Positions 2,714-17,049 are shown, counted from the first letter of the stretch. The stretch is DNA of 64,000 nucleotides from Lachnospiraceae bacterium (GCA_021202635.1 JAJQCQ010000079.1:378-64377), one strand, 5' to 3'. The notes: generated by a model not told the origin, from the sequence alone. A program made the numbers and translations.

Positions 2714-4600
2714 TTAAGAAGCTGTTTCTATTACTTTTCTAAGTTTCCGCGCCCTACGCTGCGCATAAAATTGTCCCTGTTCCGCCTCTTTTTCGTACCA
2801 GTATACAGCTTTTTCCAGATTTTTCTCACTTCCGTATGCTCCGAACTCATACATAGAACCCAGACGACCCATTGCTCTTGTCGAGTTTAAGGCAGCCGCT
2901 TTTTGATACCATTCGACTGCTTTTGACAGATCGGTTGGAATTATCTCAAAAGAATACAAATAATTATGAGCTACGATTTCCATTGCCCTTACGTTTCCCA
3001 AAGCAGCTTCTTTTTCTCCTATTGCCATCGCCTTATCAAACCACTCCCTTGCCCTATTTGCATTTGCCTCGATGCCTTCTCCTTTTTTATAGCATCTGGC
3101 AACCTGAAAACAGGCATCAAGATCCCCTTCCCGTGTTTTTTCTAAAAATGTCACGAAAGCCTTCTTATACCAGGAATCCGACATTGCCTGATCTTTAAGA
3201 ATACCCTGCCCCTGCTTATACAAATATCCCAGCCGGCTCTGGTTATATGCATCGCCTTGCTCCGCCGCTTTCATACACCATTTTATTGCTTCTGTCATAT
3301 TCTTTGGAGCATACGGTTTCCCGCTTTCATAAGTTCGTGCAACTTCGTATTGTGCCCACAAATTCCCTTGTTCTGCCAGATTTTTTTTCTGAACAAACGC
3401 TTTCGCCCGCCATTCTTCGGCTCTGACATGGTCTTCCTGTACGCCTTTCCCATACTCATACAAGTACGCAAGCATTTCCTGGGCATGAAGATCCCCCTTC
3501 AATGCTGATGTCTGCCATCCGGCAGCCGCGCGAGCATAAAATGCTTCCGCCGTTTTCGTATCCTTCTGCACACCTCTTCCGAATTCAAGCAGGATACCCA
3601 TGCGGTACATGGAATCCGTATCGTTCCTATTTGCTCCCGTTCTGTAGCATTCCGCCGCAGATGGCAGATCAGAAGCCACGCCGCAGCCTTTTTCATACTG
3701 GTATCCCAGGTAATACATCGCGTTCGTATGTCCATGACGCACTGCCTCTTTGAACAGCCCGAATGAAGCTTTATAATCCCCTGCATCGTAAGATTTCTTC
3801 GCTTTCTGGAAGAAATCCTCAGCAGATGTGTCCGGCGACTTAGGAGCTGAATTTAATAAGTTAAAGACGGAAGAAGGACAGACATTACTTTTCTGTATCT
3901 TTTTCTCAACCTGTCCCAAACTTTTATTTTGAACTGTTAAACCAGCAGGCTTATTTTCAGTCGGCTGATGATAAGTATTCTGTTTCATTCCAGAGTCAGC
4001 TATTCCAGGTTTTTGATTCCTGCTTTCCGCAGGGAGCCACCGGATGATGTCACTGTAATAGTCACTTTTGCGGTTCAGTTCATGCTTCGGGTGGATCCGT
4101 ACACGTTCATTATTATTGTTGAATACACATTCAAAGAGCTTTTGTAATGTATCAAAAGACTGGTTTTTCTCTGCCTTGGAAAGACTGCTGCTGCGGATAA
4201 ACGGATCTACCACATGATCCACAAAGTCAACAATATTGCCTACATTTTCCACATCCAGGGCAAGGAATGGTAACGGAACACGCCTGTGGCGCGCCTGCGT
4301 ACGCTCAGACAGTGTTGCCAGTATTTCATGATAACAGTTCTGGCTAATCATAGAGTGGCGGCTGACGTAAAAGAGCATATACACGCAGTCAAAGCTCTCA
4401 ATAGCCGCCATCGCATCATCCCTCCATGAAGGTTTCTGCTTATCCAGGCTTTTTTCATCAAGCCACACATTATACCCCATCTGCTGCAGGTAAAAGACAT
4501 CTTCATACACAATGTGGCAGTCTGCCGCTGAATAGCAAATATATATGTATGGTTTATCCGGATCATAGCTGTTTATTCTATCCAGTATACTGTCTGCCAT
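2714..4600 (-). CDS. TIR-domain protein with C-terminal Sel1 (SLR) repeat array
   Basis: N-terminus PYIYICYSAADCHIVYEDVFYLQQMGYNVWLDEKSL...MLFYVSRHSMISQNCYHEIL fits the TIR pattern, including the conserved Glu (codon 4325-4327). The C-terminal ~350 aa is a run of Sel1 repeats (AMYYLGYQYEKGCGVASDLPSAAECY; LAYLYEYGKGVQEDHVRAEEW; LGYLYKQGQGILKDQAMSDSWY; LGSMYEFGAYGSEKNLEKAVYWY). Start moved to ATG 4600 (GGAGGGA 6 nt upstream). Confidence 0.8.
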   Translation of the reverse strand: MADSILDRINSYDPDKPYIYICYSAADCHIVYEDVFYLQQMGYNVWLDEKSLDKQKPSWRDDAMAAIESFDCVYMLFYVSRHSMISQNCYHEILATLSERTQARHRRVPLPFLALDVENVGNIVDFVDHVVDPFIRSSSLSKAEKNQSFDTLQKLFECVFNNNNERVRIHPKHELNRKSDYYSDIIRWLPAESRNQKPGIADSGMKQNTYHQPTENKPAGLTVQNKSLGQVEKKIQKSNVCPSSVFNLLNSAPKSPDTSAEDFFQKAKKSYDAGDYKASFGLFKEAVRHGHTNAMYYLGYQYEKGCGVASDLPSAAECYRTGANRNDTDSMYRMGILLEFGRGVQKDTKTAEAFYARAAAGWQTSALKGDLHAQEMLAYLYEYGKGVQEDHVRAEEWRAKAFVQKKNLAEQGNLWAQYEVARTYESGKPYAPKNMTEAIKWCMKAAEQGDAYNQSRLGYLYKQGQGILKDQAMSDSWYKKAFVTFLEKTREGDLDACFQVARCYKKGEGIEANANRAREWFDKAMAIGEKEAALGNVRAMEIVAHNYLYSFEIIPTDLSKAVEWYQKAAALNSTRAMGRLGSMYEFGAYGSEKNLEKAVYWYEKEAEQGQFYAQRRARKLRKVIETAS

Positions 4601-4651
4601 AGTTTTTCCCTCCATGCATTATCTTTCGTTGCTATTCCGCTCAGACAATTT

Positions 4652-6088
4652 TTATGCCCGCAGACACAATAATGGCCGCAGAAACGAAATAATCTTTTTG
4701 TATTTTTCTGCATATTTACGCGCTTCTCTGTTACCCAGTTTATCAGCTTTCTGGAACAGTTTCCATGCTTTTTTAATATTTTTTTCATCTCCTTTGGTAT
4801 AGCAGATCCCGGCATGCAGCAGAAACTCCGCATGTTTCTTCCGTCCCAGGGTTCCGGCAATTTCATCTTCTGCATGTAATAACACTTTTTCAAACCAGTA
4901 CCTGGCTCTGTCATATTTCCGGACGTTATAATTTTTCTCCCCTGTTTCATATTGCGCCAGCATATGTCCGAGTTTCGCTGCCTGGCACCGGCATCGGCAT
5001 GCCTCTTTATAATCTCTGTTGCGTCCGCCCCATGCATTTACTGCCAGCTGATAAAGCGCTTCCGCAGATTCTCCTTCTTCCGCTGCCTTCCGGTACCACT
5101 TCAGCGCCTCTGCCACGCTGGTGCCGGATGGCCCCATCCCAAAGCGAAGGCAGTTTCCCGCCATGACCATAGCATCCGTATTTCCTTTTTTTGCCGCCAT
5201 CATGAAGTCCATATATATCTCAAAAAAATTATGCCCGTCCCCGGAAGAACCGTCTGTAAGACCTCTATATAATTGTCTGTAACCTTCCCGGAGCCAGACA
5301 GAGCCGTCAGTATCCTCCTTATATTCTTCCGCTTTTGTTTTTAATGCCATATCCCTGCTGTCGAAGCGGTGCATGTTTTCCAGCAGCCATGTCTGCTTAA
5401 GGGTCTCTGTGTACAGCCTGCCAGTTTTATCGTTTTTGTCAGATATACCAATATGAAGAAGCTCCTGTTCCGCTTTTTCAAATAAATCCTTCGCGATGCC
5501 CGGATCCCTGCTTACACCTGAACCACTGCTATAGCAGCAGCCCAGAAAATACATGCATTCACAGGCAGAGAATGCATCCAGTTCGTTCATTTTGCCGATA
5601 CAGTCCGCATATAACACTTCCAGGAGGAAGCAGGTATCCTTGTCCCCTTCCGGTGAACCAAGCGCCTGCAGGAAATGCCCCACAGCTTCCGGAAATCTTT
5701 TTTCGGAATAACACTTTTTGCCACGTTCATACTGTTCCTGTGCGGTAAGTCCCTCCTGGCATCCAGTCCCATTGCGGTCCGTTTCTCCGCAATGGGAATC
5801 CTGTCTTTCTGCCTGCCAGTCCATTGCCAGATTATTTTCGAACTGTTCCATCTCTTCTGCAGACAGAAGTACAAGGGATGGAAAACTCAGGATATCCCTG
5901 CTGAAGTCCCACCCGCAGCATGCGCAGGCGTTGCCCTCTTTCTCCCTGCTTCCGCATCTTGGACAGGCTGTTGCTGCCCCATTCTCCATGGAAAACAGGT
6001 TCTGCGGGAAAATTTCTGCGGCAGCCGGATTGCAGCAGGGAGTACCCGCCCCTCTGCTGTCCGTCTGGATAAAACCAGCTTCAGCCAT
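4652..6088 (-). CDS. Zinc-ribbon + Sel1-like repeat protein
   Basis: N-terminal CPRC-x8-CACC zinc-ribbon motif. Sel1-like repeats follow (FLGCCYSSGSGVSRDPGIAKDLFEKA; MAGNCLRFGMGPSGTSVAEALKWYRKAAEEG; LYQLAVNAWGGRNRDYKEA). Start ATG 6088 has a GGGGAGGA RBS 5 nt upstream and sits 1 nt after the upstream TGA (6090-6092). Confidence 0.7.
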   Translation of the reverse strand: MAEAGFIQTDSRGAGTPCCNPAAAEIFPQNLFSMENGAATACPRCGSREKEGNACACCGWDFSRDILSFPSLVLLSAEEMEQFENNLAMDWQAERQDSHCGETDRNGTGCQEGLTAQEQYERGKKCYSEKRFPEAVGHFLQALGSPEGDKDTCFLLEVLYADCIGKMNELDAFSACECMYFLGCCYSSGSGVSRDPGIAKDLFEKAEQELLHIGISDKNDKTGRLYTETLKQTWLLENMHRFDSRDMALKTKAEEYKEDTDGSVWLREGYRQLYRGLTDGSSGDGHNFFEIYMDFMMAAKKGNTDAMVMAGNCLRFGMGPSGTSVAEALKWYRKAAEEGESAEALYQLAVNAWGGRNRDYKEACRCRCQAAKLGHMLAQYETGEKNYNVRKYDRARYWFEKVLLHAEDEIAGTLGRKKHAEFLLHAGICYTKGDEKNIKKAWKLFQKADKLGNREARKYAEKYKKIISFLRPLLCLRA

Positions 6089-6089
6089 A

Positions 6090-7514
6090 TCAATCCTCCC
6101 CTTTCCTCTTATGGAATGCCTTCTCCCAGGCACGGATTTCCCGGAGAATGTCTTCCTTCGGGTTCGTCGGGCAGGCCGCCAGCAGGCTGCTGAATTTATC
6201 TTTTCCCAGTATGTACGCCCCTGCTTTTAAAGAATCTATCGCCTCATCCTGGAATTTATCCAGATCCTCGCTGCCTGCGGCCCCCAGGCTCATCCCGCAT
6301 CCGAGGACTGGCCGGCAGGATCCGTTCCATACCGCATCAAGAATATCCAGTTTGATGCTGTTAATCAGGCGGTCCAGATCCCTGTAATTGTAGTTCTCTG
6401 TCATCCCTGCCATACTGTCAAATGTCAGGTCGTCCGCAAGCACCAGACTGCCCGCCAGGTCCCGCTTGAACTTGTCCGCCCTTGCCGCCTGGTCAGGAAG
6501 CCCTACAGAGATCAGATCCATCCGGTCCAGCACGGCGGAATCCACCCTGCCGGGATAATTCGTAGCAGCCACTATATATACCTGGTTCATTTTTTTCTTT
6601 TCCGCAGCCACCATGTCAAACCCGGTCAGGAACGAAGTCGTAAGCGTAGCGGAATGGTCTGGCAGGTCCTGTGCCGACCGGTTCCTGCAGACCCCGTCAA
6701 TCTCGTCAAAAAAGAGGAGACATGGGGCATTCTCAACAGCCATCTGGAAAAGGCTTGTCAGGATTTTTTCTGCCTCGCCCACATAACGGCTGAGGATATC
6801 AGAAACATTGGCAGATATAAATCTGCAGCCGTACCCCGTCATAATTTCATGGGCAAAAGCCTGTATGATATGCGTCTTTCCGCAGCCTGGCGGCCCCACA
6901 AACAGGAGGGCGGCCATATCTTCCAGCTTAAGGTATTTCTTAATTTTCCACATCCGGCTGCTGTCCATATACCTGGCCATGCGTGCTTTTTCTTTCTCCA
7001 TCCCTGCGATATCCTGGAAGCCGTGGCCGGGAGGTTCCTTTTTTATGCATTCCCTGGCAAGTGTTTCCCTCCTCTCCTTTTCACTCTTCCCCGCCTGCAT
7101 GCTCCCTTCCGCCCTGTTCATTCCCGGTCCGGCCGGTCTTTTTGCTGCAGGGACATACAATCCGCCTCCATCCAGGGCCTCCGGTTCCTGCATCTGCGTT
7201 TCCTTCGGGCGCATCATTTTTTCGTAAACCTCCGGGGCAATTTCCTTTATGATATCCAGCATCTGTCCCATAAGCTCCTGAAGCTTTTCCTTCTGGTACT
7301 GTTTTTCTTCCCCCACGCTGATTTTTGCCATCCTGCTGCGCAGCTTTGCTGCCTCAGACAGCAGGGAATATTCTTCCTTCGTATGCGTATTGCCGTTTCT
7401 GTAAAAAACATTCTGGCTTTCCCGCATCAGCCGCAGGCATTTGTTTTCCAGCGCAGACATTGTTTCCATGTAGTTATCCGTCATTCTCCTCCTTGGCGTT
7501 CCGGCCTGTTTCAC
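6090..7514 (-). CDS. Classic-clade AAA+ ATPase, Vps4/katanin-like, with helical N-terminal domain
   Basis: Walker A GPPGCGKT (nt 6873-6896), Walker B LLFFDEID, SRH ATNYPGRVDSAVLDRM. Segments LFQMAVENAPCLLFFDEIDGV and GLPDQAARADKFK parallel yeast Vps4 LFAMARENKPSIIFIDEVDAL and PLPDLAARTTMFE (recalled from memory). The GTG start at 7514 overlaps the upstream TGA (GTGA). An alternative ATG at 7484 follows AAGGAGGAG. Confidence 0.8.
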   Translation of the reverse strand: MKQAGTPRRRMTDNYMETMSALENKCLRLMRESQNVFYRNGNTHTKEEYSLLSEAAKLRSRMAKISVGEEKQYQKEKLQELMGQMLDIIKEIAPEVYEKMMRPKETQMQEPEALDGGGLYVPAAKRPAGPGMNRAEGSMQAGKSEKERRETLARECIKKEPPGHGFQDIAGMEKEKARMARYMDSSRMWKIKKYLKLEDMAALLFVGPPGCGKTHIIQAFAHEIMTGYGCRFISANVSDILSRYVGEAEKILTSLFQMAVENAPCLLFFDEIDGVCRNRSAQDLPDHSATLTTSFLTGFDMVAAEKKKMNQVYIVAATNYPGRVDSAVLDRMDLISVGLPDQAARADKFKRDLAGSLVLADDLTFDSMAGMTENYNYRDLDRLINSIKLDILDAVWNGSCRPVLGCGMSLGAAGSEDLDKFQDEAIDSLKAGAYILGKDKFSSLLAACPTNPKEDILREIRAWEKAFHKRKGED

Positions 7515-8182
7515 TTTAAGAATTCCAGGATCTGGTCATAAAGCACATTCTCATCCCTCGTCCGGGCTGTCATATTATTTTCCGGGAACAGCCGCAGCCA
7601 TTCATCGATCTCCTCATCAGCAGGCTTCTGCGATTCCGCCATGCATTCTTCCAGGCTTTTGCCGTCTATCAGGGCATCAATCACATCCCTGTCCGCCAGG
7701 GCGTCCATCTGTATATCTTCGTTCTGGAACGATGTCTCCAGTTCACTCAGCGCGGCCAGTGTCTTAACAAGCTCTGTCCCTGACTCCGAAGCCTTCTGGT
7801 CCAGGCTTTTCAGGTTATCCTTTACCTTTTTCGAATCCAGGCCATTGACCCGGCCTGAAAGAAAATTCATTTTCTGCAGTGCCGACCCCGTATCACGGAT
7901 TGCCTCCTTCAGTTCCAGGTCTTTACTGATGTTCCGCAGGTTTTTCTGTCCGCGCATGATTGTACAAAGGCTGTAATACGCAATCCCGATCCTTGCATAG
8001 TTGGAACGGTCCGCCAGTCCTTTCTTCTTATCAGCCCTGGCACAGCCCAGTTCAAAGCGGAGAAGCGAATCGTAGGTCTCCTGCAGCTCCCTCAGCTTCA
8101 TATCCAGTTCAAGTATTATCTTATCTGCATCCTGCTTTTTCTTCCCCTTCTGGCCGTTTGTGAAAAATCCCCCAAGTTTCAT
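7511..8182 (-). CDS. ESCRT-III/Snf7/PspA-like coiled-coil protein (223 aa)
   Basis: ESCRT-III-like size, N-terminal MKLGGFF, basic N-half (KGKKKQ, ADKKKG) and acidic C-half. ALQKMNFLSGRVNGLDSKKVKDNLKSLDQKASESGTELVKTL resembles the CHMP4/Snf7 helix-3/4 region. Acidic amphipathic C-terminal EEIDEWLRLF. GGGAGGAGGA RBS 6 nt before ATG 8182. Sits directly upstream of the Vps4-like ATPase. Confidence 0.45.
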   Translation of the reverse strand: MKLGGFFTNGQKGKKKQDADKIILELDMKLRELQETYDSLLRFELGCARADKKKGLADRSNYARIGIAYYSLCTIMRGQKNLRNISKDLELKEAIRDTGSALQKMNFLSGRVNGLDSKKVKDNLKSLDQKASESGTELVKTLAALSELETSFQNEDIQMDALADRDVIDALIDGKSLEECMAESQKPADEEIDEWLRLFPENNMTARTRDENVLYDQILEFLK

Positions 8183-8200
8183 GATGGTTCCTCCTCCCGT

Positions 8201-9331
8201 TTAATCATTTTCCAGCAATGTAGGTTCGGTGTACAGCACCCTGTCCTCCCTAGCTGCCTGTTCTTCGAGCACTTCCGTTTCCTCCTGCATTTCCATATTT
8301 TCCCACGCTTTCCCGGCATCCATCGCATATGTTTTCATGCTGCGGGAAGAGAAAGCCGCCTCGATTACCCTTGAAATGGTCCGGCCGCTTCTTTCCTGTT
8401 CGCTGATCCAGCTTATTTTCCCGCTCACTGCATCCAGGAAATCCCCCTGCACTTCCGGATCCGGAGCAGCCAGCAGAGGCATATCAGCCGCGAAAAAAAC
8501 AGTCCTCTGTTTTTCTATTGCAGCTTCCGTTTCCAGTATTACGGCATAATCCAGGGCAATCATCTTTTCCTGCTCTTCGCAGCTGTTTTTCATATTCCGG
8601 ATTTCGGTCTGGAAATTCGCCAGCTTCATTGCCCCCGCACTGAGCTTCTCCGTCACCCCGGCACTTTCCTCCAGTTCCTCCACGTATCCCGGGTTCGCTT
8701 TCCTGTAAGCCTCCACTTCCCTGTGCCGCATATTATATTCTGTTTTTAATGCTGCCGCCTGCTGTTCGCGTTTCCGTATGGAATTACGCAGGCACTGGAT
8801 GTATTTCCACTTTTCACTGACAGCCAGGTAAGCATCCATCCGCTTCTCCATGTCCCGGGCTTCTTCTTCGCTTTTCACAGGCTTTTTCGCCCGCAGGATC
8901 CCATATTCCAGCCCTTCCAGCATCCAGCGGCATGCTTTCATATTTCCGGCCTGGATACAGCTTCCAAGTCCCTGCAGGAGTTCTTCCAGTTTCCGGTCCG
9001 TCTCCGGGGTGTCGAAACTGCTTAACCTGCCAAGTTCCTCTTTCAGCGGCTCCAGCCGGCGGCGGATTTCCTGAACCTCTTCCGGTTTTAACAGCGATTT
9101 CTCACCCTCCTGGATCTGGATCCCGTTCACTTTTGCCAGGAGCGCCTGTCTGTGCCCGCGCACTTCAGCCACAGTTTTTTCCTCCTCCTGCTTCTTTTCC
9201 GGAGCCGGTTCTTTTGCATCAGACCCGGCCAGCCACATCCAGATTGCCTGGAACGTTTCCCTTATCCATCCCATATTCCTTTCCCATCCTTTCTTCTGGC
9301 AGACCAGCTGTTTCAATGCTTTACCCGGCAT
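8201..9331 (-). CDS. Long coiled-coil protein with aromatic amphipathic N-terminal helix (PspA/ESCRT-III-like?)
   Basis: Heptad-rich, E/K/R/L/Q composition with an acidic tail (MEMQEETEVLEEQAARED). If translation starts at ATG 9274, the N-terminus is MGWIRETFQAIWMWLAG, an amphipathic Trp-rich helix. Start choice (9331 vs 9274) is unresolved; neither has an ideal RBS. Confidence 0.4.
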   Translation of the reverse strand: MPGKALKQLVCQKKGWERNMGWIRETFQAIWMWLAGSDAKEPAPEKKQEEEKTVAEVRGHRQALLAKVNGIQIQEGEKSLLKPEEVQEIRRRLEPLKEELGRLSSFDTPETDRKLEELLQGLGSCIQAGNMKACRWMLEGLEYGILRAKKPVKSEEEARDMEKRMDAYLAVSEKWKYIQCLRNSIRKREQQAAALKTEYNMRHREVEAYRKANPGYVEELEESAGVTEKLSAGAMKLANFQTEIRNMKNSCEEQEKMIALDYAVILETEAAIEKQRTVFFAADMPLLAAPDPEVQGDFLDAVSGKISWISEQERSGRTISRVIEAAFSSRSMKTYAMDAGKAWENMEMQEETEVLEEQAAREDRVLYTEPTLLEND

Positions 9332-9334
9332 GAT

Positions 9335-9835
9335 TCAGCCAGGATCCCCAAACAGTCTTACAATGCACCAGAGGACCAGTCCTGTTACAGCAGACGGGAG
9401 GATGCTCATAATCCCCGCAAGGCCTGCATAGATAAGAAATTCCGCAAAATAATAAGAAAGCGTAGCCCCTTCCTCCGGTGCCGGCAGGATATCCACCCGT
9501 CCGATGAACATCCCGGCAACATACAGAATACTGCTTGCAGCGCATATCATTGTAAAATTCTGGAAATAATGGTCATCATACCCGTACCAGCAGATGCGGA
9601 AAACAAGCAGAAGCACCAGTGTCAGGTTCACTCCCGCCGCCACCATCCGGATCCGGTGCGCCCTCTCATCCGCGCTGCCAAGGAGCACCCACCACACCAG
9701 GACAGAAGCTGCGGCCAGCACCAGAATCACAACGGCCAGAATCCTGGTGAAACGCCCTGCCCTGTAAAAAAATGGCAGATGGATATGAATATCATTCTGG
9801 TCTTTCTTCAATTTTCTCCCCTCCCTTCCCTGCAT
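9335..9835 (-). CDS. Small integral membrane protein (about 4 TM helices)
   Basis: Hydrophobic spans ILAVVILVLAAASVLVWWVLLG, MVAAGVNLTLVLLLVFRICWY, MICAASSILYVAGMFIG and FLIYAGLAGIMSILPSAVTGLVLWCIVRLF. The ORF-track N-terminus (to 10027) overlaps the helicase and looks non-coding. Likely start is ATG 9835, or TTG 9811 preceded by GGGAGGGGAG. Confidence 0.6.
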   Translation of the reverse strand: MQGREGRKLKKDQNDIHIHLPFFYRAGRFTRILAVVILVLAAASVLVWWVLLGSADERAHRIRMVAAGVNLTLVLLLVFRICWYGYDDHYFQNFTMICAASSILYVAGMFIGRVDILPAPEEGATLSYYFAEFLIYAGLAGIMSILPSAVTGLVLWCIVRLFGDPG

Positions 9836-12800
9836 CCGTGGCCGCTGCCTGGCCGGCTGGCAGCGGCGGGAGGTTCCGCAGGATCCGGTGCTGTTCCCGG
9901 ATGGGATCATCGAACCAGTCGAGCGAAAAGACCCACAGCAGGTTCCAGCCCCTGTCCCGGAGCAGTTCCATCTGTCCGGCCTCCCTGTCCTGCACAGATA
10001 AATTCCTGCAGTACTGGCTGGTATCAAGGATCAGGCCAAGCACATAGCGGTCCGGATCGGCCGGATCCCGGATCCCGATATCGACGCGGAACCTTCCTGT
10101 CCCGACAAGGGTATCACACTGGTAACCGCTCTCCCGCAGGAATCCACAGATTTTCATCCGGAACCCGTCTGTATCCGTTTCTTCCTCCGTCTGCACAGTT
10201 TCCGAGCCATTGCCCCGGGCGAACAGCAGGAAATCCCTGAAATCCCTGACGCCCCTCCCGCTGCCTGGAGTGATACGTATCTGCTCCGGATCCAGTGAAG
10301 TGAACAGAAGCATTTCATCCCGTGCCCGCGTAAGGGCAACATTCAGCCTTTTATGTCCTCCGGCCTGTGCCAGGGGGCCAAAGTTCATTGTCAGCCTTCC
10401 TTTTGCATCCGGGCCGTAGCCGGTCGAAAACAGGATCACATCCCTCTCATCCCCCTGTACGCATTCCAGGTTCCGGATAAACAGGGGTTCCCCTTTTTCT
10501 TCCATGTTCCCAAGCGCCTGTTCCAGCTGATGGTTTCCCGCAGCCTCTTCTTCAAGCAGGGAAAGCAACAGCGCCTTCTGGTGAATGTTAAACGTGATGA
10601 TCCCATACGTCCTTCTGTCACCGGAAAGAAGCTTTTCCGCAAGATAAGCGATGCAGGCTTCCGCCTCTGTTCTGTTTGTCATGCTGTGCCCCCTGTCGTA
10701 AACGCCCCGGACGTTCCGGAAATGCACCCTTAGCCTGCGGTCTGCGGATGGGAAGGTCATCATCTTCCCCCCGTAATACCGTCCGTTTGGGAAGGATATC
10801 AGGCTTTCATGCGTACTCCTGTAATGCCATTGCAGGTAATGGTTCGGAAGCGAAAGTGCCAGTGCTTCCTTCAGGATACTTTCCTGGTCTGCGTCAAGCG
10901 GGTTATCGTCCACATCTCCCTCCGCTGCCGCATCAAAGAACGAGGTGGGAGGCATCTGGTTCGGATCCCCTGCAATAATGACCTGTTTTGTCCGGGCAAT
11001 CAGTCCCAGTGCAGCCGGGGTCTGGATCTGGGAAGCTTCGTCAAAAATCACTGCATCCGCCTTCCAGCCCGGCCCCAGATAAAGTGCCGCAGATGCCGGG
11101 GACAGGATCATACAGGGGGCAAGGACAGGGATCAGATCCGGCAGGAGATCCATCATGGAACGGATGCTCATGCCTTTCCCGCCGCTCTGTATCATCCGGT
11201 TCAGGCTGGTCATCTGGGTTTTTATCTTCCCGGGGCCATGTGCAAGCGCTTCATGCGCCCGTTCTGCCAGCCGTCCCCTTATTTTCCTCGCAGAAGCCTC
11301 ATAATATTTCCCCATGGTTTCCCGATAGCGCGCAGCCAGGTCTTCAAACTGAAAACCAGAAAAGCTCCGGATATCTTTATCCGCGCTGTACAAACGCTGA
11401 AGCAGGGCATGGCAGCAGGCGGCACGGAACGACGGAAACAGGCCGTCATGTGGAAGTCCGGATTCATACAGCCGGATAAAGGGTGACAGCTGTAATTCTT
11501 CGCACCGCCTGCGTACGGCCAGATACCCGCTCCATTCCTTTAAGTCATCAAGGCCTTCCTGCCACCGGCTGGCTGCCGCAAGTGCCTCTTCAAGCGTCTC
11601 CCCTCCCTGGTGCCAGAGGGCAGGTACCGGTGCGGCAGCCGCAAGTTTCCGGCTGGCCGCCTCAAGAGTCTTTACCTGGCTGGCGAAAAACTGCAGGCCG
11701 TCATCTGACCGGCTGTCCATCCCTGCGGCAAATTCCGCCAGTTCTTCCTCTGACTGGAACGCTTTTTCCAGAAGGGCAAGGATCGTGGCAGCAGTCTCCA
11801 GGGTAAACTCCCCGTCCGCTTCAATCGATGGCAGCACCGCCCGGATTTTCTGTACCTGCGTCTCCTGTTTTTTTACCAGGCATGCCATTTCCAGAAATTT
11901 CGTGATTTTTCCGTCATTCCACTTTTCAGCTTCCTCCCCAAGGAAGGAAAGCAGTTTCCCACGCAGCGCTGCGTGCTGCCGCCGGAAGCGCAGATCCAGC
12001 ATCCCTTTCTTCCACTGTTCCAGCATTTTCTCCAGCGGAAGCGTAAAAAATCTTTCCCGGTATGGTTCCCTGCAGTGGCCAAGGATCGCATCCCTGCGCT
12101 GCTGATACTGTCCTGCCAGGATCCACTGTTTCAGGGCTGTCAGCGGCCAGGACTGGGAACGCAGGGCTGCCGGAAGCTTCTGCAGGAGCTTTTCTTTCAC
12201 TTCCTCTGATCTGAGCTTTCTGGAAGCCATCTCCAGTCCCTCATAAGTGGTATCCCCCGTCTCGAAGCCTGCTGACATTTCGAGGTTTTTTATCTGGGCA
12301 GCCAGGCTCTGCAGCGCATCCTGATATGCCTCCAGTGCCGGCCGGATATCCCCTGCCATGGACGGGTAATATTCATAGGTTCCCCAGTCACTCAGCGGAT
12401 GCCCGTACGGGTGCCCGGTGTGCCGGCCGGCCTCCGTCAGTTCATGCAGGGCTTCTTCATATTCGTGCATTTTTTCTTTTGCAAGGGTATCCACAAAATC
12501 CTCTTCCAGCGAAAACGGGGGCAGGTATTCTTCCACCAGCAGATACTCTGAAAGCAGCTCACAGGCACTGCTCCCATACAGCCGCGCACCATGCAGCAGA
12601 TGATCCATCCGTTCCAGTTCAGCGGCGGCATCCGTAAGCTCCTGCCGGATTATATCATAGCCCCCATCTGCCTGCGTTTCAGCTTCTGCAGCCTCTTTTG
12701 CCTCCCGCATCTGTTCCAGGAAGGATTCCTTACGGCTGGAAGGAGTAAGATACAGGCAGAAAGGTGTCAGTGAAATTTGGGAAAGCCTGTCATACACCAC

Positions 12801-14939
12801 ATTCATCGCCGGGGCTTTTTCGGCTGAAAAGATTACTCTTTTTCCGGCATATATAAGGCCGCTGACCATATCCGCAATCACCTGGGTTTTTCCGGTCCCG
12901 GGAGGGCCATGCATAACACAGGACTCCCCTCCGAGTGCCGCCGCAATGGCTTCTTTCTGCGATGCATCTGCCGGCAGGGGCAGGACAAGCTCTGACAGTC
13001 TGGAAGGCTTTGCGTCCTTATTCAGATCTTCCGGCAGTTCGCCTGTTAAAAGCCCACGGATAAACGGGTGTTTCTGATACTCGTCCATATTCTCATTCAG
13101 GTCCTTCCAGAGGACAGACCTGCTGAATTCGAAAATGCCAAGTACAGCATTCTCAAAAACATCCAGGTCTGGTTCCAGGGCCAGGGCGTCCCTTAAATAC
13201 GGAAGGCACTTTCTGAAGTCCGGCTGTCCGTCAGAATCAGAAACATGTGCCAGATGAAGGCCTTTCTGTTTTCTCAGGAACTCAAATACAGCTTCATTGT
13301 ACTGTATGGCTCCCTCTGGCCGGATACGGAAGGAACGCCCTTCTTTGATAAGCATTGCCGGGGCCAGGATCAGCGGGGCATAATGGGGCTGTTTTTTCCT
13401 GCCATCCATCCAGCGGATCATTCCGAATGCCAGGCAGAGTGCACCCGAGCCGGTCTGGTCCCTGGTTTCAGTATCTTCCTTCCGCATGGCTGAGAGCAGC
13501 CTGGCAGATGCCCCATCTTCCAGGTCTGTATGCACGGTATCCTGTCCCAGGCTTGCAAGGATCACGTCCTGGCAGGCCCTTGCGCCGGACATCCGTTCAA
13601 AAAGTTCGGCGCTCCGGGAGGAAGCTTCAAAATCTTCCGGCCGGCCCGTAATACGGAGGGTTCTTCCGTTCTTTCCGAACTTGTCATAAAGCTGCCAGCA
13701 TCTGTTTTCCGCCGTGAGAACAGGCACAGCCTTTGAGGAACCGGAAGACAGGGACAGGTTCAGAAGCGGCGACCGCGCCGAGAGATCCAGCAGTCTGTTT
13801 ATCCATTTTTCCTTTTTCCCGGCTGCAGTATACCCTGGCATCTGCCGTTCTTCCGGTACGGGATACGAAAAATCTCCCGCAGGTACCCGGCGGCCAGCCT
13901 CCTCCTGCAGTACGGCCATCTGCCGCCCAGTCAGGAGGGAAGGCATGGGCGTCACCCCTGCTTTCCTGCTCCTGCTGATATCTGCCGCACGGAAATAATC
14001 GATTTTTTCATACAGATGCGCCTCAGCCGATGCTGCCGCAGCCTGAAAGCCGCAGATATATTTCCCCCGTGAAGCACAGGTGGCCTCAAAGAGGATGATA
14101 TCGCGGTTTCCTTCCCCGCATTTCTTCCGGAAAAAGGACGGGTCCGTACTGACCGGCTGGTCAAGAATCCCTTTTTCATTCAGCCACAGGCCGCATATCG
14201 CATGGCTTTCCAGCCTGTCCGTCTTCAGGCTGATCACGAACGGGTGCAGGCCCATTGCCTCAAGGCATGAGGCAAAAAGCAGGCTGAATTCAATGCAGTT
14301 TCCTGCATGCTCACTAAGCATATCGCCAGCCATCCGGATTCTCTGATAGCCCGGAAGATAGGTTGGCCTGGAAGAAATATACGCAATCTTCTGTTCCGCA
14401 ACTGCCCTGAACAGGCAGGACGCGTACTGTATTACTTTTTCTTTCGATCCGCCCTGGTAAGCCGAGATCGAATATCCGTTTCCTGATTCTGCCAGGAGTT
14501 CGGAGACCCTTGAAAGGATGCCGGGGATAAGCGGGTGATTCGGTGTCACGTAGGCTGCGATCTGGTAGAAATCTTTTTCCCAATGGCTCAGAAGATCCAG
14601 GGTCTGGAAGGGAATCGTGATGCTTTTTTCTGCCAGTATTTTTTCACCATCACGCATCTGTACCTGCACGGTGCCATCTGCCGCCTCTGTAAAAGCAAGG
14701 AGCGGCTCCGGGGTCCATGTAAAAACCGGGTCTGCTATTTTCTTTGTTTCCCCCGGCTCCAGGGAAATGCTTTCCGTATATTCTTGAAAAACTGCCGGGC
14801 TGGCAGTAATACGCAGCTCTCCCGCTGCCGGTTCCCTGCCTGTGTTTCTGACTGTAAGGTGTTCTACAAACGGCTTTGCGTTAAGATGGGCTGCATATTG
14901 AAAAATCGCCGGAAGAGTGAAATGAATCTGAACTGCCAT
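9792..14939 (-). CDS. Giant transglutaminase-like / DUF4011 / SF1 (Upf1-DNA2-like, AAA_11+AAA_12) helicase with C-terminal restriction-endonuclease-like domain (~1715 aa)
   Basis: Transglutaminase core HAGNCIEFSLLFASCLEAMGL (Cys codon 14295-14297) followed by ...SHAICGLW. DUF4011-like WINRLLDLSARSPLLNLS. Walker A HGPPGTGKTQ (12885-12908). Helicase motifs VIFDEASQ, IIAGDPNQMPP, LQWHYRS, VQGDERDVILFS and RLNVALTRAR. Tail RFRVDIGIRDPADPDRYVLGLILD...GWNLLWVFSLDWFDDP resembles DUF559/Vsr-like REase folds. Start set at ATG 14939 (AAGGGGGA RBS); the upstream 51 codons look non-coding. Confidence 0.85.
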   Translation of the reverse strand: MAVQIHFTLPAIFQYAAHLNAKPFVEHLTVRNTGREPAAGELRITASPAVFQEYTESISLEPGETKKIADPVFTWTPEPLLAFTEAADGTVQVQMRDGEKILAEKSITIPFQTLDLLSHWEKDFYQIAAYVTPNHPLIPGILSRVSELLAESGNGYSISAYQGGSKEKVIQYASCLFRAVAEQKIAYISSRPTYLPGYQRIRMAGDMLSEHAGNCIEFSLLFASCLEAMGLHPFVISLKTDRLESHAICGLWLNEKGILDQPVSTDPSFFRKKCGEGNRDIILFEATCASRGKYICGFQAAAASAEAHLYEKIDYFRAADISRSRKAGVTPMPSLLTGRQMAVLQEEAGRRVPAGDFSYPVPEERQMPGYTAAGKKEKWINRLLDLSARSPLLNLSLSSGSSKAVPVLTAENRCWQLYDKFGKNGRTLRITGRPEDFEASSRSAELFERMSGARACQDVILASLGQDTVHTDLEDGASARLLSAMRKEDTETRDQTGSGALCLAFGMIRWMDGRKKQPHYAPLILAPAMLIKEGRSFRIRPEGAIQYNEAVFEFLRKQKGLHLAHVSDSDGQPDFRKCLPYLRDALALEPDLDVFENAVLGIFEFSRSVLWKDLNENMDEYQKHPFIRGLLTGELPEDLNKDAKPSRLSELVLPLPADASQKEAIAAALGGESCVMHGPPGTGKTQVIADMVSGLIYAGKRVIFSAEKAPAMNVVYDRLSQISLTPFCLYLTPSSRKESFLEQMREAKEAAEAETQADGGYDIIRQELTDAAAELERMDHLLHGARLYGSSACELLSEYLLVEEYLPPFSLEEDFVDTLAKEKMHEYEEALHELTEAGRHTGHPYGHPLSDWGTYEYYPSMAGDIRPALEAYQDALQSLAAQIKNLEMSAGFETGDTTYEGLEMASRKLRSEEVKEKLLQKLPAALRSQSWPLTALKQWILAGQYQQRRDAILGHCREPYRERFFTLPLEKMLEQWKKGMLDLRFRRQHAALRGKLLSFLGEEAEKWNDGKITKFLEMACLVKKQETQVQKIRAVLPSIEADGEFTLETAATILALLEKAFQSEEELAEFAAGMDSRSDDGLQFFASQVKTLEAASRKLAAAAPVPALWHQGGETLEEALAAASRWQEGLDDLKEWSGYLAVRRRCEELQLSPFIRLYESGLPHDGLFPSFRAACCHALLQRLYSADKDIRSFSGFQFEDLAARYRETMGKYYEASARKIRGRLAERAHEALAHGPGKIKTQMTSLNRMIQSGGKGMSIRSMMDLLPDLIPVLAPCMILSPASAALYLGPGWKADAVIFDEASQIQTPAALGLIARTKQVIIAGDPNQMPPTSFFDAAAEGDVDDNPLDADQESILKEALALSLPNHYLQWHYRSTHESLISFPNGRYYGGKMMTFPSADRRLRVHFRNVRGVYDRGHSMTNRTEAEACIAYLAEKLLSGDRRTYGIITFNIHQKALLLSLLEEEAAGNHQLEQALGNMEEKGEPLFIRNLECVQGDERDVILFSTGYGPDAKGRLTMNFGPLAQAGGHKRLNVALTRARDEMLLFTSLDPEQIRITPGSGRGVRDFRDFLLFARGNGSETVQTEEETDTDGFRMKICGFLRESGYQCDTLVGTGRFRVDIGIRDPADPDRYVLGLILDTSQYCRNLSVQDREAGQMELLRDRGWNLLWVFSLDWFDDPIREQHRILRNLPPLPAGQAAATDAGKGGEKIEERPE

Positions 14940-16134
14940 TATAAAGTCCCCCTTTCTGGGTCTGTCCTGCTGTTTCAGTATCTGCCTGGAAAACCGGCGG
15001 GGAACCCCTGTACCACTCCCCGCCTGCGGCAAGCACAAGCCAGGCACACTGCCTCTCATCAAGTACGATACCGGCATGCCAGGAGCCTTCACATTTTGGG
15101 GTTTCCACCGAAATGCGGCGTATCTGTTCGTTCACGCCTGTCCTCCCGCCCGTCCGGATAATTACAGAAACCTCCAGGATATCCGTGCCGGTGTGTTTTG
15201 TCCGGGCAAACTCCTGCCCCAGCCAGACCACTTCCCCATCCGCAAGAATACCTAAGTCAGCCAGGTCCGTCCTTTTTTCCTCCGGCGTTATCCTTCCGTT
15301 TTCCATCCTGTAAGTGTAATAAAGGATGCCTGTCTGGACTCCGCAAAGTGTCTGGTGCTGGGAACCGCGATCTTTCCAGACAGGGTTTTTCCTGTTCCCG
15401 TCTTTTGCGCAGAGGACATTATCCATGAATTCCAGCACAGGCTCCAGTTCGTCCTCTTCCAGGTTTCCCCACCATCTGCCATCTCCACTGGCAGCAGTTT
15501 CTCCGGAAATGCCTCTTTTCCGCCCCAGGCAGCCTGCCTTTTCGAATTTTTCAGCCACCATGATATCCACACTGCTGTTTCCCAGGGCAATGAAAGAAAA
15601 CGCCCTGGCCGCCGCTTCCAGGAGTTCCAGATCCTGTTCTTTTTCCGCCAGTTCCATATCATCAAGCAGATCACGCAGCTGTGTCTCTCCTTCTGCCATA
15701 CTTTCCAGGATATGGCAGCCAGGGACAGAAAAAAGTTCCATAAGTGCTTCCAGAAGCATATCAGCCAGCGCCTCTGTTCTTTCTGCATCCAGGCTGTATG
15801 CCCATTCCAGTTTTCCGTGAAGCATGCGGCCGATTTTTTCCCTGCCATTTTTGCCAGGCATATGGAAAGATCCTGGCATAAACCGTGCAAGGAATTCATA
15901 AGGCAGAAAATTTTTCTCCGCAGCCCGTTTCCGAATTTCGCTGATTCCCGGAAAAATCCCATCCACCCAGGAGCGGTCACCTATAAGGAAATCCAGTGTT
16001 CCTGCGGCATCAGGAGTATCCTGCAAAAAAATCACCTGTTTCCCGCATTGCATATCTTTCTGCCTGGCGCTCAGCGCATACAGTTCTGCTTCCAGTCCTG
16101 GAGTGTATTCTGACAGCATCCTGGCCGGGATCAC
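14881..16134 (-). CDS. Hypothetical protein, downstream piece of a gene split at an A7 tract
   Basis: 417-codon ORF beginning at GTG with no recognisable family. A TGA lies 10 codons upstream in this frame. Removing one A from the A7 run (T7 on + strand, 16145-16151) joins it to the 16010..16516 ORF. The last 59 nt overlap the helicase start. Confidence 0.5.
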   Translation of the reverse strand: MIPARMLSEYTPGLEAELYALSARQKDMQCGKQVIFLQDTPDAAGTLDFLIGDRSWVDGIFPGISEIRKRAAEKNFLPYEFLARFMPGSFHMPGKNGREKIGRMLHGKLEWAYSLDAERTEALADMLLEALMELFSVPGCHILESMAEGETQLRDLLDDMELAEKEQDLELLEAAARAFSFIALGNSSVDIMVAEKFEKAGCLGRKRGISGETAASGDGRWWGNLEEDELEPVLEFMDNVLCAKDGNRKNPVWKDRGSQHQTLCGVQTGILYYTYRMENGRITPEEKRTDLADLGILADGEVVWLGQEFARTKHTGTDILEVSVIIRTGGRTGVNEQIRRISVETPKCEGSWHAGIVLDERQCAWLVLAAGGEWYRGSPPVFQADTETAGQTQKGGLYNGSSDSFHSSGDFSICSPS

Positions 16135-16516: not shown

Positions 16517-16534
16517 AACTGTCACCTCCCCGTA

Positions 16535-16813
16535 TCAATGGACAAACACTGTTTTCAGCAGAAGGATGTATTCCTTTTCCCGGAGATACAAAGCTGCAAG
16601 TTCCATCACTTTCGCTGTTTCATGCAGAGGAAGTACATCAAGATACTCTTTTATGATCTTCTCATACACAGCTGCATCCGGGCAGAAACTGAGGCTCCCC
16701 CTGAGTACCAGATAGGAATTAAGGGATACTTCAAGGGACAGAAGCTCCTCGTCTGCCATCATTCCGGTTCGAAATTTTAACAATGTCCTCACCCTCCGCT
16801 TCTCGACATTCAT
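16535..16813 (-). CDS. Small hypothetical protein (92 aa), first gene of the minus-strand operon
   Basis: ORF directly downstream of a sigma70-like promoter and 18 nt upstream of the next start. Predicted helical; no family recognised. Confidence 0.4.
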   Translation of the reverse strand: MNVEKRRVRTLLKFRTGMMADEELLSLEVSLNSYLVLRGSLSFCPDAAVYEKIIKEYLDVLPLHETAKVMELAALYLREKEYILLLKTVFVH

Positions 16814-16824
16814 CTGGGTTTCCT

Positions 16825-16852: not shown

Positions 16853-16876
16853 TTTCAATCCTCATTATTCCGGCTG

Positions 16877-17018: not shown

Positions 17019-17049
17019 GAATTCAATTACGACGAAGGAGGAAATTCCA

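What the first reader, a model, noticed from the sequence alone, without database searches (positions are those of the whole stretch)
6090..9331. Bacterial Vps4-like AAA+ ATPase translationally coupled to two ESCRT-III/PspA-like coiled-coil proteins
Seen:
- The 474-aa ATPase has one classic AAA module whose blocks parallel yeast Vps4 as I recall it (LFQMAVENAPCLLFFDEIDGV / LFAMARENKPSIIFIDEVDAL; GLPDQAARADKFK / PLPDLAARTTMFE).
- It also has a ~170-aa helical N-terminal domain where Vps4 carries MIT.
- The 223-aa protein directly upstream (start/stop overlap GTGA) has ESCRT-III hallmarks: size, MKLGGFF N-terminus, basic N-half, acidic C-half, a Snf7-like central helix pattern, and a C-terminal acidic amphipathic EEIDEWLRLF that could act as a MIM-like tail.
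- The next protein upstream is a longer coiled coil. It possibly begins with the Trp-rich amphipathic helix MGWIRETFQAIWMWLAG, resembling membrane-anchoring helix alpha0 of PspA/Vipp1/Snf7.
- A 4-TM protein precedes them.

Established: PspA/Vipp1 are bacterial ESCRT-III homologues, but they are not normally paired with a Vps4-type disassembly ATPase.

Inference: a complete polymer-plus-unfoldase membrane-remodelling module embedded in a TIR/helicase operon would be unusual. It could act as a membrane-targeting effector or as a membrane-repair arm.
Basis: partly seen in the sequence, partly recalled or inferred. Interest (0 to 1): 0.8.

Follow-up and report, generated by a model that had tools for sequence, protein, structure and literature searches.

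The report
Bacterial Vps4-like ATPase with Snf7-like partner
A gut Clostridia operon pairs an AAA+ ATPase built like Vps4 (small MIT-like helical bundle, linker, one AAA engine) with a small protein that looks like a very divergent ESCRT-III subunit, a pairing that reviews say is absent from bacteria; the evidence so far is computational and moderate.

Summary
The ORFs are real and conserved. The ATPase, the 223-aa protein (G) and the 376-aa protein (F) lie in the same order in all 11 loci examined, all from gut Clostridia.

**ATPase.** It is a classic AAA protein. Its N-terminal 95 residues model confidently as a three-helix bundle, and the best PDB fold matches are MIT domains of Vps4, VPS4B, MITD1 and archaeal CdvC. 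The AAA module itself does not fall inside the Vps4/CdvC clade.

**G.**
- It has no Pfam or PDB sequence hit and no significant fold hit.
- Its profile aligns in register with an ESCRT-III profile (hhalign 84%, P=7e-6), above all controls.
- Much of that signal comes from the N-terminal "LF..KK" motif.
- All 49 members have a basic N-half and an acidic C-half.
- They end in an amphipathic helix with MIM1-like spacing.

**F.** It shows no ESCRT-III or PspA similarity.

The GTGA overlap is not the real ATPase start, and PspA-likeness is not supported.

**Context.** Most relatives sit in a roughly 10-gene cluster with an HSP70-like gene. Here the module shares an apparent operon with a DUF4011 helicase-nuclease (PADLOC PDC-S37) and a TIR-Sel1 gene, which suggests a defence or conflict role.

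The parts
6090..7484 (-). AAA+ ATPase with Vps4-like architecture. It is 464 aa from the ATG at 7484. The longest ORF reaches 7514, and the public gene call starts at 7427.
   Evidence: Pfam AAA E=3e-28. About 100 full-length homologue clusters at 33-41% identity. Start inferred from the alignment and the RBS. Walker A GPPGCGKT, pore loop YVG, Walker B DEID, sensor-1 TN and a single conserved Arg in LDR are (nearly) invariant in the family.
7197..7484 (-). N-terminal MIT-like three-helix bundle of the ATPase (ORF residues 11-106).
   Evidence: AF2 model with pLDDT 93.9 and pTM 0.80, helices 2-29, 36-55 and 58-82. In Foldseek against PDB, 12 of the top 17 hits are MIT domains (NRBF2, Vps4, VPS4B, MITD1, Sulfolobus CdvC), with prob 0.87-1.0 (ten of them >=0.93), TMt 0.61-0.79 for the isolated MIT-domain chains and E 0.09-0.9. 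The profile gives a weak full-length hit to the 2w2u CdvC MIT domain, E=0.87. There is no Pfam MIT hit and hhalign against a thin MIT profile is negative.
7020..7196 (-). Low-complexity linker between the MIT-like domain and the AAA module.
   Evidence: This stretch varies in length and is gap-rich and Gly/Ser/Lys/Ala-rich in the 30-sequence alignment.
7511..8182 (-). G: a 223-aa candidate divergent ESCRT-III-like protein.
   Evidence: Always lies immediately upstream of the ATPase, in 11 of 11 loci; L008 has two tandem copies. hhalign against ESCRT-III gives 84.4%, P=7.1e-6, 108 columns in register. Controls score <=31.7 against 43.6. It is the only one of the 10 profiles compared (nine cluster gene families plus the ATPase N-domain) that matches. 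Jackknife gives 61-88%. The core without the N-terminal motif gives only 12-18%. AF2 pLDDT 74, helices 19-53, 59-83, 88-112, 117-131 and 136-151. No significant Foldseek hit.
8129..8182 (-). N-terminal hydrophobic-then-basic motif of G (MKLGGFFTNGQKGKKKQD).
   Evidence: Conserved as M(K/G)(F/L)xPLFxKK or MFGKK across 49 members. hhalign aligns it to the ESCRT-III 'LFG' N-terminus.
7517..7552 (-). Extreme C-terminal amphipathic helix of G (residues 211-222, VLYDQILEFLK). Candidate MIM1-like motif.
   Evidence: Predicted as a helix. The family pattern is [ML]-x-x-I-x-x-[ML]-[IL]-x-x-L after an acidic linker, with hydrophobic spacing i, i+4, i+7 as in MIM1. Binding was not tested.
8201..9331 (-). 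F: a 376-aa helical/coiled-coil partner, co-conserved but not ESCRT-III-like.
   Evidence: Found in 11 of 11 loci. hhalign gives 0.8% against ESCRT-III, 0.5% against PspA and 0.8% against G. Has an N-terminal M..(F/L)..KK motif and a conserved C-terminal 'hhxN' end.
9335..9835 (-). Small membrane protein of 166 aa with four hydrophobic segments.
   Evidence: Hydropathy scan. Homologues in L001, L005 and L009. Gene call.
9792..14939 (-). DUF4011 SF1 helicase with a C-terminal MTES_1575 nuclease-like domain, embedded in the operon.
   Evidence: PADLOC PDC-S37 E=1.6e-235. Pfam DUF4011, AAA_11, AAA_12 and MTES_1575. In the same embedded position in L091, and adjacent in L005 and L088.
14881..16053 (-). 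390-417-aa protein whose C-terminal part is the conserved 'D' domain of the cluster.
   Evidence: BLAST and phmmer link it to the ~165-aa D proteins, which have a Zn ribbon and a beta-rich domain in relatives.
4652..6088 (-). Sel1-repeat protein. Its ATG lies 1 nt after the ATPase stop.
   Evidence: Pfam Sel1 E=9e-20. Gene call.
2714..4615 (-). TIR-Sel1 protein, the last gene of the apparent operon.
   Evidence: Pfam TIR_2 E=2e-9 and Sel1 E=2e-46.

Best explanation
The core of the finding is a polymer-plus-unfoldase pair built on the ESCRT-III/Vps4 plan, though each part is very divergent.

**Proposed mechanism (inferred)**
- G is proposed to be an ESCRT-III-like subunit.
  - A short hydrophobic-basic N-terminus and a basic alpha1-alpha3 hairpin would bind membrane and polymerise.
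  - An acidic C-terminal half would end in an exposed amphipathic helix.
- The ATPase would dock on that helix through its MIT-like bundle.
- It would then assemble as a ring and thread G through its YVG pore loops, remodelling or recycling the polymer.
- F, the 4-TM protein and the Zn-ribbon 'D' protein are co-conserved accessory subunits. They may act as nucleator or membrane anchor.

**Setting**
- In most relatives the module belongs to a ~10-gene cluster with an HSP70-like ATPase, a long coiled-coil protein and a second, degenerate AAA protein.
- In this window those genes are missing.
- Here the module shares an operon with a DUF4011 helicase-nuclease and a TIR-Sel1 protein, on a G+C-rich island.
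- The likely setting is therefore a defence or conflict system in which membrane remodelling or repair is one arm.

**Shown:** gene conservation and order, the classic AAA module, the MIT-like fold, the profile similarity of G to ESCRT-III, and the charge and motif patterns.
**Inferred:** polymerisation, membrane binding, the MIT-tail contact and the biological role.
For: **Synteny**
- D, F, G and the ATPase occur in the same order in all 11 loci.

**ATPase**
- Classic AAA with all catalytic and pore motifs conserved.
- The N-domain AF2 model has pLDDT 93.9. MIT domains of Vps4, VPS4B, MITD1 and CdvC dominate its PDB fold hits.
- There is a weak full-length sequence hit to the CdvC MIT domain.

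**G**
- hhalign against a verified ESCRT-III profile gives 84.4%, P=7e-6, collinear from the N-terminal motif through alpha3. The independent 12-sequence alignment gives 54%.
- Reversed, shuffled and block-shuffled controls reach at most 31.7, against 43.6 for the real comparison.
- The other nine profiles compared (eight further gene families of the cluster and the ATPase N-domain) score <=1.8%. Jackknife gives 61-88%.
- For scale, the accepted ESCRT-III-PspA relationship scores only 27.6% with these thin profiles.
- The breaks between AF2 helices in G (54-58 and 84-87) fall where the alignment puts the ESCRT-III hairpin tip and the alpha2/alpha3 elbow.
- All 49 members have a basic N-half and an acidic C-half.
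- The terminal helix is conserved with MIM1-like spacing.

**Context**
- PDC-S37 helicase and TIR domain.
- The island at 6-20 kb has G+C 0.50-0.56 against 0.41-0.47 in the flanks.
Against: - G has no Pfam Snf7 or PspA hit and no PDB sequence hit, even with a 49-sequence profile.
- Foldseek with the G model found nothing significant. CdvB (closed form) came only at rank 15, with prob 0.35 and TMt 0.38.
- Without its first 18 residues, the similarity of G to ESCRT-III drops to 12-18% (P about 1-2.5e-3).
- Alpha2 of G is about 12 residues shorter than in Snf7 (Snf7 helix limits are from my memory).
- The AAA module forms its own clade outside Vps4/CdvC in a neighbour-joining tree.
- It scores about equally against CDC48, CdvC, PAN and FtsH.
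- It has no beta-domain and no Vps4_C or MIT Pfam hit.
- The MIT-like domain has no detectable sequence homology to MIT. Three-helix, TPR-like bundles are a common fold.
- No interaction or polymerisation test was possible.
Confidence: 0.5

Rival explanations
1. This is a generic AAA unfoldase switch in a defence system. The ATPase uses a helical N-domain to recognise F and/or G. These would be soluble regulators, inhibitors or adaptors, as with TRIP13-HORMA or IetA-type systems, not membrane polymers. The resemblance of G to ESCRT-III would be convergent or fortuitous.
For: - The best PADLOC matches of the ATPase are IetA (E=2e-21) and TRIP13 (E=1.5e-16).
- The AAA module is not in the Vps4 clade.
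- The operon holds a PDC-S37 helicase and a TIR protein.
- G has no significant fold match to ESCRT-III.
- The helical core of G alone gives only P about 1e-3.
Against: - The PADLOC hits cover only the shared AAA domain.
- MIT-like folds dominate the N-domain fold hits.
- G carries the N-terminal hydrophobic-basic motif, the charge asymmetry and the terminal helix that are typical of ESCRT-III.
- A co-conserved 4-TM protein points to the membrane.
Confidence: 0.3
2. The cluster serves an unrelated cellular function, for example chaperone-assisted assembly of a surface or secretion structure. F and G would be coiled-coil scaffold proteins, and the helicase and TIR genes only neighbours in an island.
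For: - Most relatives carry HSP70-like, long coiled-coil and Zn-ribbon genes.
- They often lie beside LRR/BspA surface proteins.
- The helicase is present in only 4 of 11 loci and in different positions.
- The Sel1 and TIR genes have host-like G+C, unlike the module.
Against: - The helicase sits inside the gene row in the window and in L091.
- No secretion or surface-assembly family was detected in the core genes.
- The distribution looks patchy and island-like.
Confidence: 0.15
3. F and G are PspA/Vipp1-type stress proteins (the bacterial branch of the superfamily) that have acquired an ATPase.
For: The N-termini of some members (MGLFDRFKS, MGFWDKFKK) recall helix alpha0 of PspA/Vipp1 (the comparison rests on my memory of PspA sequences, which were checked against PDB).
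Against: - hhalign gives 0.2% for G against PspA and 0.5% for F against PspA.
- No member hits Pfam PspA_IM30.
- The signal in G is to the Snf7/CHMP4/CHMP6 type.
Confidence: 0.03

Closest known systems
Archaeal and eukaryotic ESCRT-III plus Vps4 (CdvB/CdvC; Snf7/CHMP plus Vps4)
   Same: - A small protein with a hydrophobic-basic N-terminus, a basic helical N-half, an acidic C-half and a terminal amphipathic helix.
- It is encoded next to an ATPase made of an MIT-like three-helix bundle, a flexible linker and one classic AAA module with an aromatic pore loop.
- One relative (L008) has tandem paralogues of the small protein.
   Different: - G fails Pfam Snf7 and has no significant fold match; its alpha2 is shorter.
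- The AAA module lies outside the Vps4/CdvC clade and lacks the beta-domain.
- The MIT-like domain shows fold similarity only.
- The hosts are gut Clostridia.
- The partners (F, 4-TM protein, Zn-ribbon D, HSP70-like protein, second AAA) have no ESCRT counterparts.
Bacterial PspA/Vipp1/LiaH systems
   Same: Bacterial membrane-associated helical proteins of about 220 aa with an N-terminal amphipathic motif, often encoded beside a small membrane anchor (LiaI-like logic). In chloroplasts an Hsp70 controls Vipp1 oligomers (PMC12798727), and most relatives of this cluster carry an HSP70-like gene.
   Different: No profile similarity to PspA. PspA systems are not known to use a Vps4-type ATPase (PMC7619361). 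Ravi et al. report only a distinct two-AAA-domain protein beside some PspA genes (PMC11237479).
Vps4-like AAA+ ATPases transferred from archaea to some bacteria (Ravi et al. 2024, PMC11237479)
   Same: Single-module classic AAA ATPases with an N-terminal helical domain, found in bacteria.
   Different: In those cases Snf7 is reported to be replaced by a TPR plus 6-TM protein. The family here is a separate clade restricted to Clostridia and keeps a Snf7-like neighbour. The Verrucomicrobia and Planctomycetes AAA proteins in my tree do not group with it.
PADLOC PDC-S37 / Hhe-like DUF4011 helicase-nucleases
   Same: The embedded 1715-aa gene matches PDC-S37 at E=1.6e-235.
   Different: PDC-S37 is listed on its own. 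Here, and in L091, it lies inside the row of module genes. Whether it works with them is unknown.

Membership tests
ESCRT-III (Snf7/CHMP, Pfam PF03357) | Match to the family's sequence model (Pfam Snf7) or to solved ESCRT-III sequences | tested here: not met
   No Snf7 hit for the window protein or for 12 or 49 family members. Profile against PDB sequences gives no ESCRT-III hit at E<=10.
ESCRT-III (Snf7/CHMP, Pfam PF03357) | Profile-profile similarity across the alpha1-alpha3 core | tested here: inconclusive
   hhalign gives 84.4%, P=7e-6, over 108 collinear columns, and this is robust to controls and jackknife. It falls to 12-18% when the N-terminal 18 residues are removed. The reference profile is thin (7 sequences).
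ESCRT-III (Snf7/CHMP, Pfam PF03357) | Alpha1-alpha2 hairpin fold with alpha3-alpha5 packing | tested here: inconclusive
   The AF2 model has the right number and order of helices. Foldseek gives no significant hit; CdvB (closed form) is at rank 15 with TMt 0.38. Coordinates could not be inspected.
ESCRT-III (Snf7/CHMP, Pfam PF03357) | Basic N-terminal half and acidic C-terminal half | tested here: met
   +9/-14 in the window protein. Median +7/-11 across the family, in 49 of 49 members.
ESCRT-III (Snf7/CHMP, Pfam PF03357) | C-terminal MIT-interacting motif | tested here: inconclusive
   There is a conserved terminal amphipathic helix with i, i+4, i+7 hydrophobic spacing after an acidic linker. 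It lacks the Arg/Lys of the MIM1 consensus, and binding was not tested.
ESCRT-III (Snf7/CHMP, Pfam PF03357) | Membrane-bound polymerisation | not testable with these tools
   Needs biochemistry or electron microscopy.
Vps4/CdvC | N-terminal MIT domain | tested here: inconclusive
   Met at fold level: AF2 pLDDT 93.9, and 12 of the top 17 PDB fold hits are MIT domains, with TMt 0.61-0.79 for the isolated domains. Not met at sequence level: no Pfam MIT hit, and hhalign against a thin MIT profile gives 0.3%.
Vps4/CdvC | Single classic AAA module with Walker A/B, pore loop 1, sensor 1 and Arg finger | tested here: met
   GPPGCGKT, YVG, DEID, ATN and LDR are conserved in 30 sequences. Only one Arg is present where Vps4 has two.
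Vps4/CdvC | AAA module placed within the Vps4/CdvC (meiotic) clade | tested here: not met
   NCBIfam CdvC scores 98.5 bits (cut-off 650), CDC48 108, PAN 90 and FtsH 85. The family HMM scores all classic AAA proteins at 107-130 bits. In the neighbour-joining tree the family is its own clade (98% bootstrap) outside CdvC plus yeast Vps4.
Vps4/CdvC | Beta-domain insertion and Vps4_C region in the small subdomain | tested here: not met
   No Vps4_C Pfam hit. The family alignment has no ~45-aa insertion there; the window protein alone has an unrelated ~25-aa insert.
PspA/Vipp1 (Pfam PF04012) | Sequence or profile similarity to PspA_IM30 | tested here: not met
   hhalign gives 0.2% for G and 0.5% for F against a PspA/Vipp1 profile that was verified against PDB. 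No Pfam hit.
PADLOC PDC-S37 (DUF4011 helicase) | Match to the PDC-S37 model and its domain set | tested here: met
   E=1.6e-235 over residues 428-1747. Pfam DUF4011, AAA_11, AAA_12 and MTES_1575.

The most novel reading that the evidence does not exclude
Gut Clostridia carry a true, laterally mobile ESCRT-III/Vps4-type membrane-remodelling machine. A Snf7-like polymer would be recycled by an MIT-AAA ATPase, with its own nucleator or anchor proteins and, in the full version, an HSP70-like co-disassembly factor. The machine would be used as the membrane arm of an anti-phage or conflict system together with a DUF4011 helicase-nuclease and TIR effectors. This would be the first Vps4-coupled ESCRT-III system in bacteria.
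Probability: 0.35. Interest if true: 0.9.

Novelty: new variant of a known kind. Interest (0 to 1): 0.74.

Why it matters
Current reviews state that bacteria have ESCRT-III relatives (PspA, Vipp1) but lack a Vps4-like disassembly ATPase, and that Snf7-type ESCRT systems are confined to archaea and eukaryotes (PMC7619361, PMC10936438).

A conserved bacterial pair of a Snf7-like protein and an MIT-AAA ATPase would matter in several ways:
- It would either push the polymer-plus-unfoldase design back in evolution or show that the design arose twice.
- It would give a simple bacterial system for studying ATP-driven ESCRT-III remodelling.
- Because it sits beside a helicase-nuclease and a TIR protein, it could reveal a membrane-remodelling or membrane-repair arm of bacterial immunity.
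- The wider ~10-gene cluster with an HSP70-like ATPase is not recognised by PADLOC apart from the helicase, and I found no paper describing it.

Tried and rejected
1. Word-index homologue searches for G, as a single sequence and as a 12-sequence profile, found only itself plus one relative. The family came from neighbours of ATPase homologues and from the exhaustive representative search.
3. G and F are not paralogues: hhalign gives 0.8%.
4. The F profile gave weak hits to the VPS4B MIT domain (E 0.08-0.4). The local alignment shows a Lys/Glu-rich coiled-coil match with high bias (12.6 bits, bias 5.7). I rejected it as compositional.
5. F against the ATPase N-domain gives 0.2%.
6. The N-domain against a thin MIT profile (four CdvC sequences plus yeast Vps4) shows no signal.
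7. The window holds no homologue of the HSP70-like gene, gene A, gene C or gene I (tblastn).
8. There is no near match in the plasmid or phage collections. Only one family member lies on a predicted viral contig, and its gene order differs.
9. The longer ATPase homologues (543-812 aa) are not fusions with cluster proteins. Their C-terminal extensions are unrelated to any cluster family.
10. The Verrucomicrobia and Planctomycetes AAA proteins that came next in the genome scan are not CdvC by NCBIfam and do not group with the family.
11. The promoter and terminator scan was no better than chance.
12. A literature search on DUF4011/PDC-S37 gave nothing relevant.

Full report
**1. What is in the sequence**

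On the minus strand, a row of tightly spaced genes runs from about 16.4 kb down to 2.7 kb:
- a 125-171-aa ORF;
- a 390-417-aa protein;
- a 1715-1766-aa helicase;
- a 166-aa protein with four hydrophobic segments (9335-9835);
- F, 376 aa (8201-9331);
- G, 223 aa (7511-8182);
- an AAA ATPase (6090-7484/7514);
- a Sel1-repeat protein (4652-6088);
- a TIR-Sel1 protein (2714-4615).

Family searches give the following:
- The ATPase carries one classic AAA module (PF00004, E=3e-28).
- The helicase matches DUF4011, AAA_11, AAA_12 and MTES_1575, and PADLOC PDC-S37 at E=1.6e-235.
- The last gene matches TIR_2 and Sel1.
- F and G match no Pfam, PADLOC, NCBIfam or PDB sequence.

The stretch from 6 to 20 kb has G+C 0.50-0.56, against 0.41-0.47 in the flanks. 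This suggests an acquired island.

**2. Corrections to the observation**

The GTG start that creates the GTGA overlap is not the real ATPase start.
- Thirty homologues align from M11.
- The ATG at 7484 follows AAGGAGGAG and lies 26 nt after the stop of G.

The N-terminal region is a ~95-aa helical domain plus a ~60-aa low-complexity linker, not 170 aa of helix.

**3. The trio is conserved**

The ATPase has about 100 full-length homologue clusters (411-435 aa, 33-41% identity) in gut Clostridia metagenomes and MAGs. The next-best hits are archaeal CDC48 proteins.

I examined ten related loci plus the window: L001, L004, L005, L008-L010 and L088-L091. All of them hold D (a ~165-aa Zn-ribbon protein), F, G and the ATPase in the same order.

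Most also hold, upstream, a ~600-aa protein, an HSP70-like protein and a long coiled-coil protein. Downstream they hold a second, degenerate AAA protein. The window lacks these four genes.

The DUF4011 helicase sits inside the row in the window and in L091. It lies next to the cluster in L005 and L088.

G has 54 representative homologues (E<1e-3) among 1.84 billion proteins, most of them about 200-280 aa long, with a few shorter, probably partial, sequences.

**4. The ATPase**

*Catalytic motifs.* Walker A, the pore loop (YVG), Walker B, sensor 1 and one Arg finger are conserved across the family.

*N-domain.* With 23 homologues in the alignment it models at pLDDT 93.9 as a three-helix bundle.
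- Twelve of its top 17 PDB fold matches are MIT domains: NRBF2, yeast Vps4 with Vps20, Vps2 or Vfa1, VPS4B with IST1, MITD1, and Sulfolobus CdvC.
- For the isolated MIT-domain chains TMt is 0.61-0.79; rmsd is mostly 2-4 A.
- E-values are only 0.09-0.9, as expected for so short a domain.
- The sequence profile gives a weak full-length hit to the CdvC MIT domain (E=0.87).
- There is no Pfam MIT hit and no hhalign signal to a thin MIT profile.

*AAA module.* It is not a Vps4 by descent, as far as I can tell.
- NCBIfam scores are CDC48 108, CdvC 98.5, PAN 90 and FtsH 85 bits.
- The family HMM scores all classic AAA proteins at 107-130 bits.
- A neighbour-joining tree puts the family in its own clade (98% bootstrap), outside the group of CdvC plus yeast Vps4.
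- There is no beta-domain.

The architecture is therefore Vps4-like, but membership in the Vps4 family is not shown.

**5. G**

*Structure.* The AF2 model (49 sequences, pLDDT 74, pTM 0.66) has helices at 19-53, 59-83, 88-112, 117-131 and 136-151, plus short C-terminal helices. Foldseek found no significant PDB match. CdvB (closed form) appeared only at rank 15.

I checked that it retrieves Snf7, the CHMPs, Vps24, Asgard ESCRT-IIIB and CdvB from PDB.
- hhalign of the G profile against it gives 84.4%, P=7.1e-6, over 108 collinear columns. The alignment runs from the N-terminal 'LF..K' motif through alpha1, the Lys-Gly hairpin tip and alpha2 into alpha3.
- The independent 12-sequence alignment gives 54%.

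*Controls.*

| Comparison | Result |
|---|---|
| G vs ESCRT-III (real) | score 43.6 |
| Reversed profiles | score 14.6-14.9 |
| 40 column shuffles | score <=15.8 |
| 60 block shuffles | score <=31.7 |
| The other nine profiles (eight further cluster gene families and the ATPase N-domain) vs ESCRT-III | <=1.8% |
| Jackknife (one reference left out) | 61-88% |
| ESCRT-III vs PspA (accepted relationship) | 27.6% |

*Caveat.* The signal is strongest towards the Snf7/CHMP4/CHMP6 type. It depends partly on the N-terminal motif: without residues 1-18 it falls to 12-18%.

*Other ESCRT-III-like features.*
- All 49 members have a basic N-half and an acidic C-half.
- All end in an amphipathic helix with hydrophobic spacing i, i+4, i+7 after an acidic linker, as in MIM1.
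- One relative, L008, has two tandem G genes.

**6. F**

F is co-conserved and has a similar N-terminal M..F..KK motif and a conserved C-terminal 'hhxN' end. It shows no similarity to ESCRT-III, PspA or G. A weak PDB hit to the VPS4B MIT domain is compositional.

**7. Literature**

- A 2025 review states that a Vps4-like ATPase "appears absent in bacteria" (PMC7619361).
- Makarova et al. find ESCRT homologues in archaea "but not in bacteria" (PMC10936438).
- Ravi et al. report Vps4-like ATPases transferred to some bacteria, with Snf7 replaced by a TPR plus 6-TM protein. They also report a different two-AAA-domain protein beside some PspA genes (PMC11237479).
- Chloroplast Hsc70 controls Vipp1 oligomers through the Vipp1 C-terminal tail (PMC12798727). 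This is a possible parallel for the HSP70-like gene in most relatives.
- I found no paper describing this cluster.

**8. Reading**

The best-supported explanation is a divergent ESCRT-III-like subunit paired with an MIT-AAA unfoldase, together with accessory membrane and scaffold proteins, inside a defence-type island. The main rival is a generic AAA switch acting on soluble helical regulators.

The fold of G, the MIT-tail contact, polymerisation and the biological role all remain untested.

Noticed in passing
L001, L004, L005, L008, L009, L088-L090 (about 8 kb upstream of the ATPase in each): Most relatives carry a larger conserved cluster. Upstream lie a ~600-aa unknown protein, an HSP70-like ATPase (Pfam HSP70 E=5e-11, N-terminal nucleotide-binding part only) and a 450-760-aa coiled-coil protein. 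Downstream lies a second, degenerate AAA protein. None of these is in PADLOC. The window lacks all four.
   Followed up: partly
window 6001-20000: G+C is 0.50-0.56 here against 0.41-0.47 in the flanks, so the module and helicase look like an acquired island. The Sel1 and TIR-Sel1 genes (2714-6088) have host-like G+C (0.46-0.47).
   Followed up: no
window 13780-14939 (helicase residues ~1-430): The DUF4011 helicase has a ~430-aa N-terminal extension that the PDC-S37 model does not cover. It gives a faint transglutaminase-core hit (E=0.085).
   Followed up: no
window 6200-6330 (ATPase ORF residues ~405-430): The window's ATPase alone has a ~25-aa Gly/Cys-rich insert (NGSCRPVLGCGMSLGAAGSEDLDKFQ) in the small AAA subdomain. 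This is roughly where Vps4 carries its beta-domain. Other family members lack it.
   Followed up: no
P0084 (812 aa), P0060, P0075, P0083, P0085: Some ATPase homologues carry C-terminal extensions of 120-400 aa that are unrelated to any cluster family. The 400-aa extension of P0084 may be an enzyme domain (motifs such as NSNHATTIAGFSYD).
   Followed up: partly
L093:1-3585 (IMG/VR contig IMGVR_UViG_3300029573_000354): The one family member on a predicted viral contig has a different gene order. A gene-I-like AAA protein lies upstream of an 845-aa ATPase, and no G or F was detected nearby.
   Followed up: partly
window 17017-20280 (+) and 168-2564 (+): Two large ORFs (1087 aa and 798 aa) that flank the operon have no Pfam match.
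   Followed up: no
window 23743-24795 (+) and 31031-33751 (-): There is a VirD4/TraG-like T4SS coupling-protein fragment (E=2e-8). There is also a RecD2-type helicase fused to DUF4186. The first hints at remnants of a conjugative element near the island.
   Followed up: no
L008:8740-9988: Two tandem G paralogues lie upstream of the ATPase in an Oscillospiraceae MAG. L001 has an extra, truncated F paralogue (8433-9236).
   Followed up: partly
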